Shown here piece after piece: positions 1-64,000 of a stretch of DNA of 64,000 nt. Position numbers and translations under genes: made by a program. The DNA lies in sequence record LC494302.1, one strand, 5' to 3'. The notes below the pieces were generated by a model. That model worked only from the letters and a program-made list of their open reading frames with translations. It searched no databases and was not told the origin of the DNA. The DNA comes from Escherichia phage SP27. Every line of letters begins with the position of its first letter. Position 1 is the stretch's first letter.

Positions 1-361
1 TTGCATTACATTAAAAACACCTGTTAGTATTGTAATTAAAAAAAATAAAGATGATGAATTGACATTATCTATTGGTCGTGATAAAATCATTTTAAGTAAT
101 TTGTCTGAAGAAGAATTCTTTCAAAGAAGTACTATTATCGATATGAAAGATTTCACATATGAATCATTGGTTGAACTCAATACACGTTTTAACGATATTC
201 AGGAACGATTGCGACCAATTCTTCGTATCGAAGAAGAAGCCTGGATTGAAAGTATTAGGAAGATGCAAGAAATGTTGAAAGAAAATATTAACAATCTGGG
301 TAAAGCTACAATGGAATTTGGTAAAACTTTTAAACTGAACTTTTCAAAGGATCGTAAATGA
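1..361 (+). CDS. hypothetical protein, 5'-partial; FQxST-motif family
   Basis: Frame open from window edge (TTG at 59 is internal); contains EEEFFQRSTII motif shared with ~15 paralogs. Confidence 0.45.
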   Translation, partial: CITLKTPVSIVIKKNKDDELTLSIGRDKIILSNLSEEEFFQRSTIIDMKDFTYESLVELNTRFNDIQERLRPILRIEEEAWIESIRKMQEMLKENINNLGKATMEFGKTFKLNFSKDRK

Positions 362-813
362 AAATTGATAATTTGATTCATGTTTTAGGATCTTTACATA
401 AAATATTATCACATCTACATGAGATAAAGAAACTGGGATTTAACATCTCAAATTCAATTGAAACTACATTTAAATATCAATCAATTACTGGTGATGGTTA
501 TTACATAATCGAATATACTTATGAAACCGATCCAGACTTCTATCCTCTTACGTTGAGAATTTATCCAACAAATCCGAGAGGAATTCACGACATATCATCA
601 ATTTCACTTGATCCAGATGGTGAAACGAGTATTGAATACAATAATGATTCAAAACCAGAATTTTACATTGATGATATTAAAATGATGTTCAACGATGAAT
701 ATGTTTTCCAACAAAGTACTGTGCATGATGTTGGAAGTACTAATGGACAATTTTGGAATACATGTTATTATCATATGATTGAAATTTGTAAATTATTAAA
801 AGGCGATGATTAA
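358..813 (+). CDS. hypothetical protein, FQxST-motif family
   Basis: 151 aa ORF, ATGA overlap with neighbour; C-terminal EYVFQQSTVHDV motif. Confidence 0.5.
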   Translation: MKIDNLIHVLGSLHKILSHLHEIKKLGFNISNSIETTFKYQSITGDGYYIIEYTYETDPDFYPLTLRIYPTNPRGIHDISSISLDPDGETSIEYNNDSKPEFYIDDIKMMFNDEYVFQQSTVHDVGSTNGQFWNTCYYHMIEICKLLKGDD

Positions 814-1196
814 TGAAATACAGCATTGAAGTACATTACACTACAGGGGACACTGAAACTGAAGATTCAGTTACCAATACATTGGATGTTCAATGGGAAT
901 CAAAGGATGAGGCAGTTGTAGCATTACAGTCTTTGAAAGAGCATTGGGTATTCTTTAAGAAACTCGATGATGCATATAGTAACGAACGTGCGACAATAAT
1001 CGATGAAGCCAAACATAAAGAATGGTTTGATCCAATGTCATGTGAATTCTCTTTCTTTGTAAAAATTGGAGATGAAAAAATTCCAGTACGTACACCGTGG
1101 AACGGCTACTTTGAAACTCTTCATAATGCACGAGTTGTCGCTGTTGATAATCCTGAACAAATCGATTTCGATTCATTGGACTGGAAAAAACTATGA
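813..1196 (+). CDS. hypothetical protein
   Basis: 127 aa ORF, start overlaps upstream stop (TAATG). Confidence 0.45.
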   Translation: MKYSIEVHYTTGDTETEDSVTNTLDVQWESKDEAVVALQSLKEHWVFFKKLDDAYSNERATIIDEAKHKEWFDPMSCEFSFFVKIGDEKIPVRTPWNGYFETLHNARVVAVDNPEQIDFDSLDWKKL

Positions 1197-1636
1197 CAGT
1201 ACTGCACCAATTGAAGAAGGTTAAGCATCCAGTTGTATATGAGGACTGGAAACGTCAGAAGCTGATGGGTGATTTTTATTTCCCAAAATCTAAAGTACTA
1301 GCAACGTCAAAAGCTATATACTTGAAATATAAGGATGAAGATTGTTTGTGTATTCAAATGGGATTCCATCCTAAAGTTGGTTTGTTTACAACAAATCAAA
1401 CATTTTATAAATTTAGAATTCAAAAAGATACATTTAGTATTCATATCGAAAAGCATGATGTACAAGATACAATTTATCGTGTGGAAAGTGAGCCTTTGAA
1501 TCTTGTTGAGATTCCGTACAATAATTTAGAAGAAATGTACTTTCAGCAGTTGACAATACAAGAAGACTTTGGTATGATAGGACTTCAAGAGTTAGAGATG
1601 ATTAAACAAATTCGTGATATCTACTTTAAGGAGTAA
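1193..1636 (+). CDS. hypothetical protein, FQxST-like family
   Basis: 147 aa ORF; C-terminal EEMYFQQLTIQEDFGMIGL motif. Confidence 0.5.
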   Translation: MTVLHQLKKVKHPVVYEDWKRQKLMGDFYFPKSKVLATSKAIYLKYKDEDCLCIQMGFHPKVGLFTTNQTFYKFRIQKDTFSIHIEKHDVQDTIYRVESEPLNLVEIPYNNLEEMYFQQLTIQEDFGMIGLQELEMIKQIRDIYFKE

Positions 1637-1796
1637 CTATGCCAGTACGTAACAGTACTTCACGCTTTACGCTTCAACAGAAAGCAGATCTTTTGAATAT
1701 GGCAAACAAAGATTCTAATTTTCACTATCTAGTACTCGGTGGTTCAGTTGAAAAGATTGACCTACGTGAGTGTATGAAATAACAAAAGGGGCTAAA

Positions 1797-61585: not shown

Positions 61586-61593
61586 ATTCCCTC

Positions 61594-62796
61594 CTATTGT
61601 TGCCATAACTGCGATGGCATTAATGTTAGTGTAGTAATACTATAAGTGCCATCTGGCAATCTACCACCATTTCCATTCCAGCCACCACATGCATATAATT
61701 TATAATCTTTAGTAATTATTATGGTTCTGCTCCAATCTTTAGATGCCATAAGAACATTGTCATAACCACTACTTATTGCACTAAGATTAAAAATATTCCA
61801 AGTTCTAACTAATGTATTAGTTCCATTACCTTCTTGACCATATGAGTTAGCACCACTACTTCTAACATATGGTGCGTATTGTGCCATAGGTGCACCAATT
61901 GATGCATTTCCCATATTACTTGGACAAATAAAAGTACTGTACTTACTTACATCAACCGTGACCGATGTGTTCCTAATTGGTGTTAGCTGATTTACCGATG
62001 TAGTCGTACCATTACCAGCTTGTCCAGAACTGTTAGCCCCGCTATAATATACAGACCCACCAGTAGTAAACCACCAAGTAACATCGTATGTAGTACTAAT
62101 ATGTTCTACATTACTAATCACGAATTTGTTCAAATATACAACAGAACTACCACCACATCCACTTTCACCAAAGTTATCCTTACCACAAAACCATGCATCT
62201 TTATTTGATTTGATATAGTGCGTTCCTTGTAATGAACATGCCATATGTGTAACTTCACCCATATTAGTCATAACTGTGAGTGTAGGGATGGAATTTTTAT
62301 TCCCAGAGCCACATTCACCATTAGTATTTCTTCCACACGCAATTACTCTACCATCGGTTAATAATATTCTAGTACTTTCACCTATATATACACTCTTGAT
62401 CATATTAGCCATAACACCTATTTTATTAAATGCAACAGTAACATCAGTCCATGTTGTCAAATAACCATTAACAGGTGTTGCATCTCCATAATCAGAAAAT
62501 GCACCAACCGACCCAGTGTAGTATATTTTATTATCCAAATCAATCATCAATGAACCTTGAACACCAAGCCAAAAGGCTGCACAGTTCCTTGCAAGTACTG
62601 TAAATGACGAAACTGCTGCTGAATTCCCAAGACCAAATTGATAAAAGTTATTACTACCATAACCATATAAAGTATTAGTTGGGTTATGGAGATACATACA
62701 GTTTGTATAATGTTGTTGTAAAACATCTGAGAACTCTACAGGTTCTGGACCTGGTGCAATATTTGCGTACTTAACCATTCTTCCAAAAGGTAACAT
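61594..62796 (-). CDS. MLPF-propeller array protein (RCC1-like repeats)
   Basis: MLPFGRMVKYANIAP; GRNTNGECGSG, GANSSGQAGNG, GANSYGQEGNG. Confidence 0.7.
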   Translation of the reverse strand: MLPFGRMVKYANIAPGPEPVEFSDVLQQHYTNCMYLHNPTNTLYGYGSNNFYQFGLGNSAAVSSFTVLARNCAAFWLGVQGSLMIDLDNKIYYTGSVGAFSDYGDATPVNGYLTTWTDVTVAFNKIGVMANMIKSVYIGESTRILLTDGRVIACGRNTNGECGSGNKNSIPTLTVMTNMGEVTHMACSLQGTHYIKSNKDAWFCGKDNFGESGCGGSSVVYLNKFVISNVEHISTTYDVTWWFTTGGSVYYSGANSSGQAGNGTTTSVNQLTPIRNTSVTVDVSKYSTFICPSNMGNASIGAPMAQYAPYVRSSGANSYGQEGNGTNTLVRTWNIFNLSAISSGYDNVLMASKDWSRTIIITKDYKLYACGGWNGNGGRLPDGTYSITTLTLMPSQLWQQ

Positions 62797-62867
62797 ATTT
62801 CCCTCCTTTATTCATTATACTATATTTAATACAAAAAGAAATGCCAGTATCAAGTACTGGCATAATA
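62797..62867 (-). promoter_or_regulatory. array cassette
   Basis: ATGCCAGTACTTGATACTGGCAT hairpin, TATAAT, AAAGGAGGGAAAT. Confidence 0.55.
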
Positions 62868-64000
62868 TTATCGGTTAAATTTAAAATCTGTTATGTGTGT
62901 CCATGTATGATTTAATGGGGTACTCATTGGTGTAAAGCCAGCAGGGTCTGACAAAGCTGTACCACGTGCGTACATAAATTGATTGCCAGTACAATCCATT
63001 ATAGCATAAGAACGTGTTGCTGTGCCACATTTGAACCCAACTGCACTACTTGGGGTCGGTAATACTTCAAATGTAGGTGCATTTGAACTACCACCCCCAT
63101 CTTTTGTTCCAGCTATGTACAGAACTCCATTAGTATCAATGATTAAGTTAGTCCAATATGCTTGTTCTCGACCAGCATAAAAATATGTTAAATCACCGGG
63201 TACAAATGGTAACGTTCCTTTATATATTGTGGTATTAACATTCACTGGTGCACCAGCTACACCCCATGAACTCATATAGTTTCTCCCACTTGCGTAGAAT
63301 GTAGTTCCTTTACCGTAAAGTATTAATGTTGCTTGACTTGTTCGCATTGCATTATATTCAAACTCAGGATCATCAGTAGCGTCCTTAAAAATCTGTGTCC
63401 ATGTTGTTATATTGCCAGTAGTTGTAACACCCATTTGATAATAATAATTATCACCAGTAGCATAGAATTCTTTAGGGCCAGTTTGTACAATTGCATTCCC
63501 ATTAGTTAACCAAAAATCTAATGTATTAGTCTTGATCTTGGTTGGTGTGTAATTCGCCACGGTATTTCCTTTTCCGAAATAACCATTAGCGTTATTTCCA
63601 TGACCCCATAAATCACCATTAGTTGTGCGTAGGAATAATGTACCAGTATTGAATCCAACTTTTTCTATAGTACTTATGTCAATACCAACAGTCGTGTACT
63701 TCGTTGTAAAATCTTGAAAAGTACTCCAATAATTAGATGAACCATTAAACATGGTTTGTCTACCAGTGTACTTCACTTTATTATCGTTAGTGATAAGTAA
63801 TGTCCCCCACACTGACGCGAACATTAACTTAACATTTTCCATAACAAAGTATGGCTTACCGTATGCTGACGCGGTAGTGTTTAAACCTAATAGTTGTCCA
63901 TCATTACTACAACCCCATACTTCGCCGTTATCCAAAAGCATCAACATAGTAGGTTTGCCGGATGATACATCCAAAAAGAAATCTTTTGGTGTTGGTACAC
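62868..64000 (-). CDS. array paralog, 5' end beyond window
   Basis: Frame open to window edge; G/S/T/N/Y-rich like other members; N-terminus not visible. Confidence 0.55.
   Translation of the reverse strand, partial: VPTPKDFFLDVSSGKPTMLMLLDNGEVWGCSNDGQLLGLNTTASAYGKPYFVMENVKLMFASVWGTLLITNDNKVKYTGRQTMFNGSSNYWSTFQDFTTKYTTVGIDISTIEKVGFNTGTLFLRTTNGDLWGHGNNANGYFGKGNTVANYTPTKIKTNTLDFWLTNGNAIVQTGPKEFYATGDNYYYQMGVTTTGNITTWTQIFKDATDDPEFEYNAMRTSQATLILYGKGTTFYASGRNYMSSWGVAGAPVNVNTTIYKGTLPFVPGDLTYFYAGREQAYWTNLIIDTNGVLYIAGTKDGGGSSNAPTFEVLPTPSSAVGFKCGTATRSYAIMDCTGNQFMYARGTALSDPAGFTPMSTPLNHTWTHITDFKFNR

What the first reader, a model, noticed from the sequence alone, without database searches (positions are those of the whole stretch)
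1..64000. Strong over-representation of the palindrome AGTACT / CAGTACTG
Seen: AGTACT occurs about every 250-350 bp by eye (about 6 in the first 2 kb), versus roughly 0.3 per kb expected at ~35% GC. It sits in the spacer of early promoters as TTCAGTACTG right before TATAAT (9839, 10328, 27273, 31588, 41941), in both arms of hairpins (5981, 48676 and every array cassette as CCAGTAC..GTACTGG), in terminator loops (13951), and in coding sequence via S-T, Q-Y and V-L codon pairs. Phages more often avoid short palindromes, so enrichment suggests function: an operator for a phage DNA-binding protein, a modification or recognition site, or a recombination signal.
Basis: seen in the sequence. Interest (0 to 1): 0.65.

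Follow-up and report, generated by a model that had tools for sequence, protein, structure and literature searches.

The report
Hyper-abundant AGTACT palindrome in enterobacterial phages
The six-letter palindrome AGTACT is about ten times too frequent throughout this giant E. coli phage, in all its relatives and in an unrelated family of small prophages of the same host group, is kept there by selection although these phages purge other palindromes, and nobody yet knows what reads it.

Summary
Observation confirmed. The window is an Asteriusvirus-type (121Q/PBECO4-like) jumbo coliphage. AGTACT occurs 192 times against about 20 expected, and CAGTACTG 38 times against 0.8. It is the commonest hexamer in the window and in the 348-kb 121Q genome.

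The excess survives synonymous-codon, codon-order and Markov nulls. It occupies all three reading frames plus intergenic DNA, lies in 182 independent contexts, and distorts dipeptide usage. The other palindromic hexamers are depleted.

Sites are conserved above their flanks but turn over. The trait is shared by every enterobacterial Rak2-like genus sampled and absent from relatives on other hosts. With identical extended flanks (tTCAGTACTGAa), it also occurs in an unrelated family of about 33-kb lambda-like prophages of Enterobacteriaceae. Host DNA has about 0.06 sites/kb against 2.6-5/kb in the phages.

No cognate methyltransferase or reader was found. The neighbouring C5-methylase probably targets another sequence, and SlmA is excluded by its published specificity. 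A conserved 7.6-kb island uses a strand-specific variant, AGTACA.

Best reading: a selected duplex-DNA recognition site for an unidentified two-fold-symmetric protein, acting as a dense phage-specific tag. The closest analogue is cyanobacterial HIP1. I found no published description.

The parts
1..64000 (.). Dispersed population of 192 AGTACT sites (38 as CAGTACTG), about 1 per 333 bp and 8-17 per 4 kb. They occur in all three reading frames and in intergenic DNA.
   Evidence: Extended symmetric consensus: C at -1 / G at +6, T at -3/-4, A at -7..-10.
9839..9866 (+). Early sigma70-type promoter TTGACT-N9-AGTACT-G-TATAAT (site at 9854). Further AGTACT sites lie upstream at 9781 and 9801.
10313..10346 (+). 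Promoter with two AGTACT sites 20 bp apart that bracket the -35 hexamer (10313 and 10333), followed by GA-TATAAT.
11084..11117 (+). Promoter-like element upstream of the tRNA cluster, with AGTACT at 11084 and 11104 (20 bp apart) and GA-TATAAT.
27273..27300 (+). Promoter TTGACA-N9-AGTACT-G-TATAAT (site at 27288).
31588..31615 (+). Promoter TTGACA-N9-AGTACT-G-TATAAT (site at 31603).
41941..41968 (+). Promoter TTGACA-N9-AGTACT-G-TATAAT (site at 41956).
5977..6004 (+). Terminator-like hairpin TACCCAGT-acttg-ACTGGGTA plus a T-run. AGTACT (5982) spans the stem-loop junction.
13942..13995 (+). Terminator-like hairpin with AGTACT (13955) in the loop. A second CAGTACTG lies at 13919.
48677..48696 (+). 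Hairpin CCAGTACT-atta-AGTACTGG, with one AGTACT in each arm (48679 and 48689).
53444..53462 (-). Intergenic cassette hairpin GCCAGTA-n-TACTGGC between RCC1-like paralogs. It is followed on the minus strand by a T-rich run and a TATAAT-containing stretch.
54728..54747 (-). Cassette hairpin GCCAGTACT-tg-AGTACTGGC (sites at 54731 and 54739).
56761..56779 (-). Cassette hairpin GCCAGTACT-c-AGTACTGGC (sites at 56764 and 56771). Equivalent cassettes carry sites at 55962, 58031 and 62853.

Best explanation
AGTACT is the core of a longer two-fold-symmetric site (full form about TTCAGTACTGAA). I propose that a dimeric, or otherwise symmetric, sequence-specific protein reads it on duplex DNA. Selection keeps it at very high density all over the phage genome.

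The phages carry 2.6-5 sites per kb and the enterobacterial chromosome about 0.06 per kb. The most likely role is therefore a density tag that lets some factor tell phage DNA from host DNA. That factor could coat, organise or spare phage DNA, or concentrate itself on phage DNA, during infection. Asteriusviruses have additionally co-opted the site at a fixed position in early-promoter spacers and in terminator stems.

Shown here:
- The excess is real and acts at the DNA level.
- Sites are under purifying selection, with turnover.
- The trait is clade-wide.
- The same extended motif is present in a second, unrelated phage lineage of the same host order.
- Host DNA lacks it.

Inferred, not shown:
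- That the function is phage-versus-host discrimination.
For: 1. DNA-level selection. The excess survives codon-aware nulls (157 against 46, 25 and 37). It occupies all frames and intergenic DNA. It inflates the S-T, V-L and Q-Y dipeptides 1.5-1.7x, while the reversed dipeptides stay at about 1.0. It lies in 182 independent contexts.

2. Site-level conservation. Against EC.P1 at 15% divergence, 72% of sites are intact compared with 52% of flanking hexamers (p = 5e-6). In the prophage lineage the figures are 0.32-0.48 against 0.16-0.28. Sites unique to one genome are roughly balanced (34 and 42 in the two directions).

3. Symmetric extended recognition. C is favoured at -1 (2.7x) and G is disfavoured (0.45x); T is favoured at -3/-4 and A at -7..-10. 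In gene-free DNA the site grows to the 12-14-bp palindrome (A)TTCAGTACTGAA(T).

4. Clade-wide distribution. Enrichment is 7-12x in Asteriusvirus, a Klebsiella Rak2-like phage, Eneladusvirus and Mimasvirus. PA5oct, XacN1 and Atu_ph07 lack it.

5. Second lineage. In the lambda-like prophages of Enterobacteriaceae, AGTACT is 3.5-15x enriched and is the top palindrome in all 62 loci, with the same flanks.

6. Discrimination power. E. coli K-12 has 3 sites against 4.8 expected in 50 kb. At a prophage-host junction the count drops from 42 sites in 14 kb to 1 in 6.8 kb. 87 unrelated viral loci sit exactly at expectation.

7. These phages otherwise avoid palindromes. The other 63 palindromic hexamers stand at 0.82x, and 15 of the 53 expected at least 3 times are absent.

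8. Spacing is slightly more even than random, with fewer long gaps, in 6 of 7 genomes.

9. Fixed promoter register. 13 of 42 perfect sigma70 promoters in 121Q have AGTACT-G-TATAAT, against about 0.1 expected.
Against: - No reader has been identified. The ORFs downstream of motif-bearing promoters have no recognisable domains. BLAST and profile-HMM comparisons find no shared candidate between the two lineages beyond tail fibres, lysozyme, HNH endonucleases and a DUF4326 protein.
- Binding sites for a protein are not normally selected at about 3 per kb inside coding sequence at a cost to protein sequence.
- The 7.6-kb island where every site is the asymmetric AGTACA, all on one strand and conserved in three independently sequenced genomes, shows that the two strands or half-sites can be read separately. 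A simple symmetric-dimer model does not predict this.
- A compact 6-8-bp core is more typical of restriction/modification enzymes than of HTH regulators.
- The promoter register is not evident outside Asteriusvirus.
- Host range and phylogeny are confounded in the jumbo clade.
Confidence: 0.4

Rival explanations
1. HIP1-type origin. AGTACT is the target of a sequence-specific DNA methyltransferase or other modification enzyme. It is created and maintained by a methylation-dependent biased mismatch repair (Elhai's model for cyanobacterial HIPs), or it is selected because the modified site has a function.
For: - The phenomenology matches HIP1: a hyper-abundant palindrome in all frames, conserved between genomes (PMC5861425, PMC4390886).
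- One-mismatch variants at the outer positions are about 2x enriched, as Elhai reports for HIP1.
- A Dam-family (PF05869) N6-adenine methyltransferase is conserved across all AGTACT-rich jumbo genera.
- A phage with about 900 ScaI-type sites that otherwise purges palindromes should need to protect them.
Against: - The C5-methyltransferase next to the window has its recognition region conserved with orthologs in phages that have zero AGTACT.
- No methyltransferase motif or homolog was found in the roughly two-thirds of the small prophage genome examined.
- Differences between relatives are spread over all six positions, with transversions common and no C>T or G>A excess.
- The site extends to 12-14 bp in non-coding DNA.
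- fEgEco12 DNA is cut normally by ten restriction enzymes, several of which I recall to be sensitive to adenine methylation (PMC13070987).
Confidence: 0.2
2. Host-factor exploitation. A DNA-binding protein conserved in Enterobacterales recognises the site, and both phage lineages independently accumulated it. The benefit would be to titrate that protein (for example a defence sensor, silencer or division regulator) or to recruit it.
For: - Two unrelated lineages share only the host order and have identical extended flanks.
- Jumbo relatives on Pseudomonas, Xanthomonas and Agrobacterium lack the trait.
- No shared phage gene explains it.
- The host chromosome has few sites, as is typical for specialised factors such as SlmA or MatP.
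Against: - The one known enterobacterial protein with an AGTACT-core site, SlmA, is excluded. It needs G1, T2, purine3, A4, G5 (PMC3020112). The phage sites prefer C and avoid G at position 3, and there are no SBS-compatible 12-mers in 121Q or L143.
- No other host protein with this specificity is known or found in the searchable literature.
- Other phages of the same hosts avoid the site completely.
- Host range and phylogeny are confounded.
Confidence: 0.2
3. Strand-specific enzymatic site, such as a nicking, priming or other single-strand-reading activity. The functional unit would be a half-site on one strand, and the palindrome would be the economical way to place it on both strands.
For: - The AGTACA island: 41 sites, all on one strand, with no AGTACT and no TGTACT. 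It uses all reading frames, keeps the canonical flanks, and is conserved in phAPEC6 and PBECO4.
- Spacing of a few hundred bp, slightly more even than random.
- The preferred G at +6 creates CTG on both strands, which I recall to be the E. coli DnaG initiation trinucleotide.
Against: - The two lineages should use different replication machinery: the jumbo phages encode a T4-type primase, and the small prophage shows no replisome genes in the parts seen. Yet they share the same extended motif.
- A need for the site on one strand does not explain the total exclusion of the palindrome from the island.
- No nicking enzyme was identified.
- Known primase sites are 3-5 nt long.
Confidence: 0.1
4. 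By-product of codon or dipeptide usage, base composition, repeated cassettes or an RNA-level signal, with no DNA-level function.
For: Frame 0 (AGT-ACT, Ser-Thr) is the commonest frame. AGT and ACT are favoured codons. The phage carries a tRNA-Ser(ACU).
Against: - All codon-aware, dinucleotide and Markov nulls are exceeded by z = 13-27.
- All frames and intergenic DNA are enriched, intergenic most of all.
- The flanks are symmetric.
- There are 182 independent contexts.
- The same motif occurs in an unrelated lineage with different GC content.
Confidence: 0.02

Closest known systems
HIP1 (Highly Iterated Palindrome 1, GCGATCGC) and alternate HIPs of cyanobacteria
   Same: - A short palindrome hyper-abundant far beyond compositional expectation, at about one per gene or denser.
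- Present in all reading frames and between genes.
- Sites conserved between related genomes, indicating selection (Xu et al. 2018, PMC5861425).
- One-mismatch variants concentrated at the outer positions (Elhai 2015, PMC4390886).
- Function still unknown.
   Different: - AT-rich hexamer core rather than a GC-rich octamer.
- Found in virus genomes, not cellular chromosomes.
- The host chromosome lacks it.
- Found in two unrelated phage lineages.
- No cognate methyltransferase demonstrated, and one candidate is argued against.
- Enrichment is 8-15x rather than 15-300x.
- A strand-specific variant island exists.
- The 10-90-kb periodicity was not tested.
Chi, KOPS and DNA-uptake sequences (over-represented 'architecture-imparting' or self-recognition oligomers)
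   Same: Short oligomers kept at high genomic density by selection because a protein machine reads them as a property of the 'right' DNA. They tolerate coding sequence.
   Different: - Those motifs are asymmetric and strand-skewed, and they mark the cell's own chromosome.
- AGTACT is palindromic and marks phage DNA but not host DNA.
- Chi itself is not enriched here.
- Only the AGTACA island shows polarity.
SlmA-binding sequence (GTGAGTACTCAC) of E. coli nucleoid occlusion
   Same: A 12-bp palindrome with the same AGTACT core, read by a dimeric enterobacterial protein.
   Different: SlmA requires G1, T2, purine3, A4, G5 (PMC3020112). The phage sites have T/A at position 1 and C (with G avoided) at position 3. 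GAGTACTC occurs 3 times against 194 for CAGTACTG, and there are no SBS-compatible 12-mers.
Restriction-site (palindrome) avoidance in phages; ScaI/Eco255I-type AGT^ACT sites
   Same: The sequence is a classical type II restriction site. The same phages strongly avoid many other 6-bp palindromes. Unrelated phages of the same hosts have zero AGTACT.
   Different: The sign is opposite: about 10-fold enrichment instead of depletion.
SPO1 TF1-type phage-encoded DNA-binding protein that prefers phage DNA and overlaps early promoters (from my own knowledge)
   Same: The concept of a factor that discriminates phage from host DNA and also sits at early promoters.
   Different: TF1 discriminates through hydroxymethyluracil rather than a sequence motif. 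No such protein has been identified here.

Membership tests
HIP (highly iterated palindrome) elements | Palindromic oligomer far more frequent than composition, dinucleotide, Markov or codon models predict | tested here: met
   192 against 20. 157 against 25-46 in CDS. 75 under third-order Markov. 903 against 118 genome-wide.
HIP (highly iterated palindrome) elements | Dispersed through coding DNA (all frames) and non-coding DNA, not carried by a repeat family | tested here: met
   Frames 73/34/50 plus 35 intergenic sites. 182 independent contexts. Flat metagene profile.
HIP (highly iterated palindrome) elements | Sites conserved between related genomes beyond background | tested here: met
   72% against 52% for flanking hexamers, p = 5e-6. 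Second lineage 0.32-0.48 against 0.16-0.28.
HIP (highly iterated palindrome) elements | Cognate orphan methyltransferase that recognises the motif or its core is present | tested here: inconclusive
   The C5-methyltransferase is probably not AGTACT-specific. The Dam-family methyltransferase is conserved in the jumbo clade but its specificity is unknown. None was detected in the small lineage.
HIP (highly iterated palindrome) elements | Resident in cyanobacterial chromosomes; GC-rich octamer | tested here: not met
   AT-rich hexamer in phages of Enterobacterales. So this is an analogue, not a member of HIP1 itself.
SlmA-binding sites (SBS) | G, T, purine, A, G at positions 1-5 of the 12-bp palindrome (PMC3020112) | tested here: not met
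   Position 3 is C in 46-54% of sites and G in 8-11%. There are no matches to GTRAGYRCTYAC in 121Q or L143.
Sigma70 promoter spacer / operator element | Fixed position relative to the -10/-35 hexamers at promoters | tested here: met
   13 of 42 perfect promoters in 121Q, and 6 in the window, carry AGTACT-G(A)-TATAAT. This accounts for under 5% of sites and is not seen in the small samples from other genera.
Type II restriction-modification target protected by a phage methylase | Phage encodes a methyltransferase (or endonuclease) of AGTACT specificity, and virion DNA is resistant to ScaI | not testable with these tools
   No specificity data are available. The published digests of fEgEco12 did not include ScaI. 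The 'restriction enzyme' label in CRJP21 looks like an annotation shift onto a CapR-domain homing-type endonuclease absent from the window.
Polar architecture-imparting sequences (Chi/KOPS type) | Strand-skewed orientation relative to replication or genome ends | tested here: inconclusive
   Not definable for a palindrome. The AGTACA island is fully polar (41:0), but there is only one such region per genome.
Codon or dipeptide artefact | Excess disappears when protein sequence and codon usage are held fixed | tested here: not met
   z = 19-27 against three codon-aware nulls.

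The most novel reading that the evidence does not exclude
AGTACT density is the recognition signal of a previously undescribed self/non-self DNA discrimination system in Enterobacterales phage biology. An unidentified host- or phage-encoded protein reads TTCAGTACTGAA-type sites. Two unrelated phage lineages have converged on the same tag, or one mimics the other; for example, a resident prophage could be disguising itself as the jumbo phage's DNA. The strand-specific AGTACA island reveals a second, polar mode of reading.
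Probability: 0.3. Interest if true: 0.9.

Novelty: new variant of a known kind. Interest (0 to 1): 0.8.

Why it matters
Phage genomes are textbook examples of palindrome avoidance. Here one palindrome is the commonest hexamer of a 350-kb genome, is preserved across genera that no longer share DNA similarity, bends protein sequences, and recurs with identical flanks in an unrelated prophage family.

That implies a strong, specific and so far unknown molecular reader acting on phage DNA in Enterobacterales.

It is also a tractable E. coli-phage counterpart of cyanobacterial HIP1, whose function remains unresolved roughly three decades after its description. Binding, methylome and recoding experiments are straightforward in this system.

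Practical uses:
- The motif density is a sharp marker for delimiting these prophages in bacterial genomes.
- It predicts extreme sensitivity or programmed resistance of therapeutic jumbo phages to AGTACT-specific restriction systems.

Tried and rejected
- Chi over-representation, suspected from enriched CCACC/CCAGC pentamers: only 2+3 Chi octamers in the window. Rejected.
- SlmA as reader: rejected on its published specificity.
- The adjacent C5-methyltransferase (121Q gene 91) as the cognate enzyme. Its recognition region is conserved with orthologs in PHB05 and Proteus phage RS51pmB, which have no AGTACT. Judged unlikely.
- Deamination or VSP-type repair signature: differences between relatives are spread over all positions, with many transversions. 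Not supported.
- The 'restriction enzyme' annotated in CRJP21: an apparent off-by-about-10 label shift onto a homing-type endonuclease (CapR domain) that is absent from the window and has no AGTACT.
- Sequencing artefact as the cause of the AGTACA island: rejected, because the island is conserved in phAPEC6 and PBECO4.
- 'Mirror-image' polarity of the smaller AGTACT-free island (TGTACT x6): too few sites to be significant, so not relied on.
- Helical phasing of site pairs: only a small excess at 20-22 bp, largely from promoter pairs.
- Promoter register in other genera: not seen, but the samples are small.
- DNA-binding domains in ORFs downstream of motif-bearing promoters: none found.
- Shared reader gene between the two lineages by tblastn and profile HMMs. 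Only tail fibre, lysozyme, HNH and DUF4326 were shared. A weak fam64 / 121Q gene 197 link failed the reciprocal search.
- Cultured relative of the small lineage: DCP80 (39% terminase identity) is not enriched.
- Literature: no paper on these phages mentions the motif, and the extended motif is not a documented prokaryotic binding site.

Full report
**Identity of the window.** The window matches Asteriusvirus-type jumbo coliphages at 97-99% identity: slurp01, phAPEC6, JP4, PBECO4 and 121Q. These belong to the Rak2-like group of about 350-kb myoviruses. From the ORF coordinates, window position 1 corresponds to about position 64,023 of 121Q (NC_025447.1).

- AGTACT occurs 192 times against 20.0 +/- 4.0 in dinucleotide-preserving shuffles (maximum 29). 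CAGTACTG occurs 38 times against 0.76.
- AGTACT is the most frequent of all 4096 hexamers in the window.
- The excess builds up stepwise: GTAC 2.7x, AGTAC/GTACT 4.1-4.4x, AGTACT 8.8x, CAGTACTG 59x. Among xGTACy hexamers only A...T is strongly enriched. A third-order Markov model, itself inflated by the motif, expects 75.
- I called 130 genes (87% coding). I found 73, 34 and 50 sites in the three frames and 35 intergenic sites, or 4.4/kb against 2.8/kb in coding DNA.
There are 157 coding sites against 46 +/- 6 when synonymous codons are shuffled within each gene, 25 +/- 5 when codon order is shuffled, and 37 +/- 6 under global synonymous resampling (z = 19-27).
- The pressure is strong enough to shape proteins. 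Ser-Thr, Val-Leu and Gln-Tyr dipeptides are 1.5-1.7x over-represented, while Thr-Ser, Leu-Val and Tyr-Gln sit at 0.95-1.05.
- The 192 sites lie in 182 unrelated flank contexts, so duplicated cassettes do not explain the count.
- Sites are spread evenly (8-17 per 4 kb; gap CV 0.86 against 0.99 for random placement).

**Contrast with other palindromes.** The remaining 63 palindromic hexamers are collectively depleted (0.82x). Of the 53 expected at least 3 times, 15 are completely absent, against 1.5% of comparable non-palindromic hexamers. The phage is therefore a typical restriction-site avoider with one large exception.

**Anatomy of the site.**
- Genome-wide in 121Q the flanks are symmetric. 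C is favoured at -1 (46%, 2.7x) and G is disfavoured (8%). T is favoured at -3/-4 and A at -7 to -10.
- In a gene-free 2-kb stretch of 121Q (135.2-137.2 kb), which coordinate comparison with CRJP21 places near the left end of the genome and probably inside the terminal repeat, the site appears repeatedly as the 12-14-bp perfect palindrome (A)TTCAGTACTGAA(T).
- A metagene profile is flat across gene bodies (about 2.6/kb). It has modest peaks upstream of starts and just after stops, where the motif sits in promoter spacers and terminator stems.
- Of 42 perfect TTGACW-N16-18-TATAAT promoters in 121Q, 17 have the motif in the spacer and 13 have it in exactly the register AGTACT-G-TATAAT. About 0.1 would be expected even at the inflated genomic frequency.
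- The window holds six promoter-type contexts: four in the AGTACT-G-TATAAT register (sites 9854, 27288, 31603, 41956) and two with AGTACT-GA-TATAAT (10333, 11104). Two of the six have a second site 20 bp upstream abutting the -35 hexamer.
- This register recurs in EC.P1 but is not evident in the few promoters sampled from the Klebsiella, Cronobacter and Pectobacterium relatives. I therefore treat it as a secondary, Asteriusvirus-level co-option.

**Genome-wide and clade-wide distribution.**
- 121Q has 903 AGTACT sites in 348.5 kb (7.6x). It is again the commonest hexamer. There are 11-65 sites per 10 kb against 3.4 expected. Density is lowest in constrained late genes (none in the major capsid gene) and highest in the small-ORF early region and presumed terminal repeat. 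Some homing-endonuclease genes have none.
- The same hexamer is the top outlier, at 7-12x, in a Klebsiella Rak2-like phage, Erwinia phage pEa_SNUABM_49 (Eneladusvirus), Cronobacter GAP32 and Pectobacterium CBB (Mimasvirus), and the more divergent coliphage EC.P1.
- More distant members of the supergroup on other hosts lack it. Pseudomonas PA5oct has 3 against 14.3, Xanthomonas XacN1 has 0 against 9.3, and Agrobacterium Atu_ph07 has 3 against 6.7. None has a comparable palindrome.

**Selection on sites.**
- Against EC.P1 (85% identity over 49 kb), 72% of AGTACT hexamers are intact, compared with 46.5% of all hexamers and 52% of hexamers 12-24 bp away (Fisher p = 5e-6).
- AGTACT ranks third of 195 frequent hexamers for conservation.
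- Differences are spread over all six positions with many transversions. There are 42 sites unique to the window and 34 unique to EC.P1.
- This is a maintained equilibrium with turnover, not a frozen relic. It shows no deamination or VSP-type signature.
- Spacing is slightly under-dispersed, with fewer gaps above 1.2 kb than expected, in 6 of 7 genomes. The effect is weak.

**Methyltransferases.**
- 121Q encodes a C5-cytosine methyltransferase (gene 91, PF00145) about 0.7 kb upstream of the window, and a Dam-family N6-adenine enzyme (gene 417, PF05869).
- Homologs of the C5 enzyme, with the presumptive target-recognition region conserved, occur in coliphage PHB05 (about 51% identity by tblastn) and Proteus phage RS51pmB (48%). 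A more divergent homolog occurs in Vibrio phage Rostov 7 (41%). These genomes contain no AGTACT at all, against 10.7, 4.0 and 4.4 expected. This enzyme family therefore probably recognises something else.
- GAP32 and CBB carry a different set of methyltransferases.
- The Dam-family enzyme is conserved across all AGTACT-rich genera at 42-100% identity. It remains a candidate, but its specificity is unknown.
- fEgEco12 DNA is cut as predicted by ten restriction enzymes, so there is no global hypermodification. ScaI was not tested (PMC13070987).

**A second, unrelated lineage.**
- I scanned IMG/VR for the 14-mer ATTCAGTACTGAAT and measured AGTACT density in the 119 returned stretches of at least 2 kb. 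The distribution was bimodal. 87 sat exactly at expectation (181 observed, 182 expected), and about 30 carried 3.5-6.7 sites/kb.
- Besides Rak2-like contigs, the dense group consisted of contigs of about 16-35 kb with 37-44% GC and no DNA similarity to 121Q.
- These contigs encode a lambda gpA-type large terminase, a lambda-family portal, a protease-capsid fusion and a lambda-like tail tube.
- Collecting relatives through the terminase gave 62 loci. AGTACT is the top palindrome in every one: about 15x at 90% or more terminase identity, about 10x at 83-86%, 6-13x at 78%, and still 3.5-7x at 40%.
- The elements are integrated in Leclercia, Phytobacter, Pseudescherichia, Enterobacter and Mangrovibacter genomes.
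- Their extended flanks match those of the jumbo phages: C at -1 in 54% of sites (2.8x), G depleted, T at -3/-4, A at -7..-9.
- Their sites are conserved above flanks.
- At the Enterobacter junction the count falls from 42 sites in 14 kb of prophage to 1 in 6.8 kb of host DNA. E. coli K-12 has 3 against 4.8 expected in 50 kb.
- A second scan for paired CAGTACTG octamers recovered essentially the same two lineages.

**Search for a common reader.**
- tblastn and profile-HMM comparisons used 112 ORF families of the small elements against all ORFs of 121Q and the partial jumbo genomes. They found only a tail-fibre module (50% identity to 121Q gene 509), lysozyme, HNH endonucleases and a DUF4326 protein. 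A weak hit to 121Q gene 197 failed the reciprocal test.
- The roughly 9 kb of non-structural genes of the small element are all ORFans, and no methyltransferase motif was seen.
- ORFs downstream of motif-bearing promoters in the window have no recognisable domains.
- SlmA is the one enterobacterial protein I know with an AGTACT-core site, and its published specificity excludes it. It requires G, T, purine, A, G at positions 1-5 of GTGAGTACTCAC (PMC3020112). The phage sites prefer C and avoid G at position 3. GAGTACTC occurs 3 times against 194 for CAGTACTG, and no SBS-compatible 12-mer exists in 121Q or L143.

**An unexplained polar variant.**
- In 121Q, 161.8-169.4 kb contains no AGTACT. It contains 41 copies of AGTACA, all on the plus strand, and no TGTACT. 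These sites use all three frames (15/12/13) and keep the canonical flanks.
- 35 of the 41 are conserved as AGTACA in independently sequenced phAPEC6 and PBECO4, both of which show the same AGTACT-free, AGTACA-dense stretch. So it is not a sequencing artefact.
- It is the only such patch in the genome. From coordinates in genomes with mapped ends, it lies about 10 kb inside the direct terminal repeat of about 21 kb.
- Whatever reads the motif can therefore distinguish strands or half-sites. None of my models predicts the complete exclusion of the palindrome there.

**Interpretation.**
- The data establish a DNA-level, selected, phage-specific signal with two-fold symmetry and a 6-bp core extendable to 12-14 bp.
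- I commit to the reading that it is the recognition site of an unidentified symmetric protein, and that its density (roughly 40-90-fold above the host chromosome) serves to mark phage DNA. Promoter and terminator use are secondary.
That would be the most economical way to explain two unrelated lineages sharing identical flanks. It may instead be phage-encoded with horizontal spread, or with mimicry by the resident prophage. The shared tail-fibre module shows that the two lineages exchange genes.
- A HIP1-type methylation-and-repair origin is the main rival. It is weakened by the substitution spectrum, the C5-enzyme result and the lack of a methyltransferase in the small lineage, but it is not excluded because the Dam-family enzyme is untested.
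- A strand-specific enzymatic role is kept alive by the AGTACA island.

**Novelty.** None of the papers I could search on RaK2, GAP32, CBB, PA5oct, phAPEC6, Sharanji or fEgEco12 mentions the motif. The nearest described phenomenon is cyanobacterial HIP1. I classify this as a new variant of that kind: a highly iterated palindrome in phage genomes.

Noticed in passing
121Q (NC_025447.1) 161800-169384, outside the window; homologous regions are L021 (phAPEC6) and L022 (PBECO4): A 7.6-kb island with no AGTACT but 41 strand-specific AGTACA (no TGTACT). The sites use all reading frames and keep the canonical flanks. 35 of 41 are conserved in two independently sequenced relatives. It is unique in the genome.
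   Followed up: yes
121Q 155502-159569 (outside the window): A 4-kb stretch of about 70-aa tandem ORFs with essentially no AGTACT and only chance-level GTAC (2.2/kb). It may be recently acquired DNA or DNA exempt from the process.
   Followed up: partly
window 11128-11219: A tRNA-Ser with anticodon ACU, which decodes AGU. AGU is the first codon of the in-frame motif (AGT-ACT) and the commonest Ser codon here (33%). This may be a long-term adaptation to the motif load. Five other tRNAs lie at 8200-12642.
   Followed up: partly
window 1-64000: Strong avoidance of other 6-bp palindromes. 15 of the 53 expected at least 3 times are absent (for example GGTACC, CCATGG, TGGCCA, GCATGC, CTGCAG, GGATCC). 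This is consistent with evasion of restriction by site loss rather than by global modification.
   Followed up: yes
L009 (coliphage PHB05), L010 (Proteus phage RS51pmB), L011 (Vibrio phage Rostov 7), L018 (XacN1): AGTACT is completely absent from these unrelated phages (0 against 10.7, 4.0, 4.4 and 9.3 expected), whereas 87 random viral contigs are at expectation. Three of the four carry homologs of the 121Q C5-methyltransferase. The link, if any, is unexplained.
   Followed up: partly
window 49850-63974, minus strand: An array of about 12 paralogous 370-430-aa genes, annotated as RCC1-like 'DNA condensation' proteins in 121Q. They are separated by a repeated intergenic cassette containing a GCCAGTAC...GTACTGGC hairpin and a TATAAT-containing stretch.
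   Followed up: no
121Q 135195-137160 (L003:35195-37160), outside the window: A gene-free 2-kb region near the presumed left terminus or terminal repeat, with 20 AGTACT sites (10/kb). Many are the extended palindrome (A)TTCAGTACTGAA(T). There is also a cluster of GATGGCTG-like 8-mers spaced 16-40 bp apart. It could be an origin, packaging or regulatory region.
   Followed up: partly
L020 (phage CRJP21, OQ708376.1): Product names in this GenBank record appear shifted by about 9-10 genes relative to the true ORFs. The sigma factor, kinase, endonuclease V and 'restriction enzyme' labels sit on ORFs of the wrong size.
   Followed up: partly
window about 44983-45050, compared with 121Q 110617-112710: 121Q carries an insertion (genes 220-222) that includes a 487-aa CapR-domain endonuclease with no AGTACT. 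The window's phage lacks it. This is consistent with a recently arrived mobile element that has not acquired the motif.
   Followed up: partly
L143/L211 (IMGVR_UViG_3300011546_000034) and prophages L205-L210: The small AGTACT-rich lambda-like element is about 33 kb, with 38-42% GC in hosts of about 50-60% GC. Its non-structural region is entirely ORFan. It has a protease-capsid fusion gene and a tail-fibre module 50% identical to 121Q gene 509. No cultured relative was found.
   Followed up: partly
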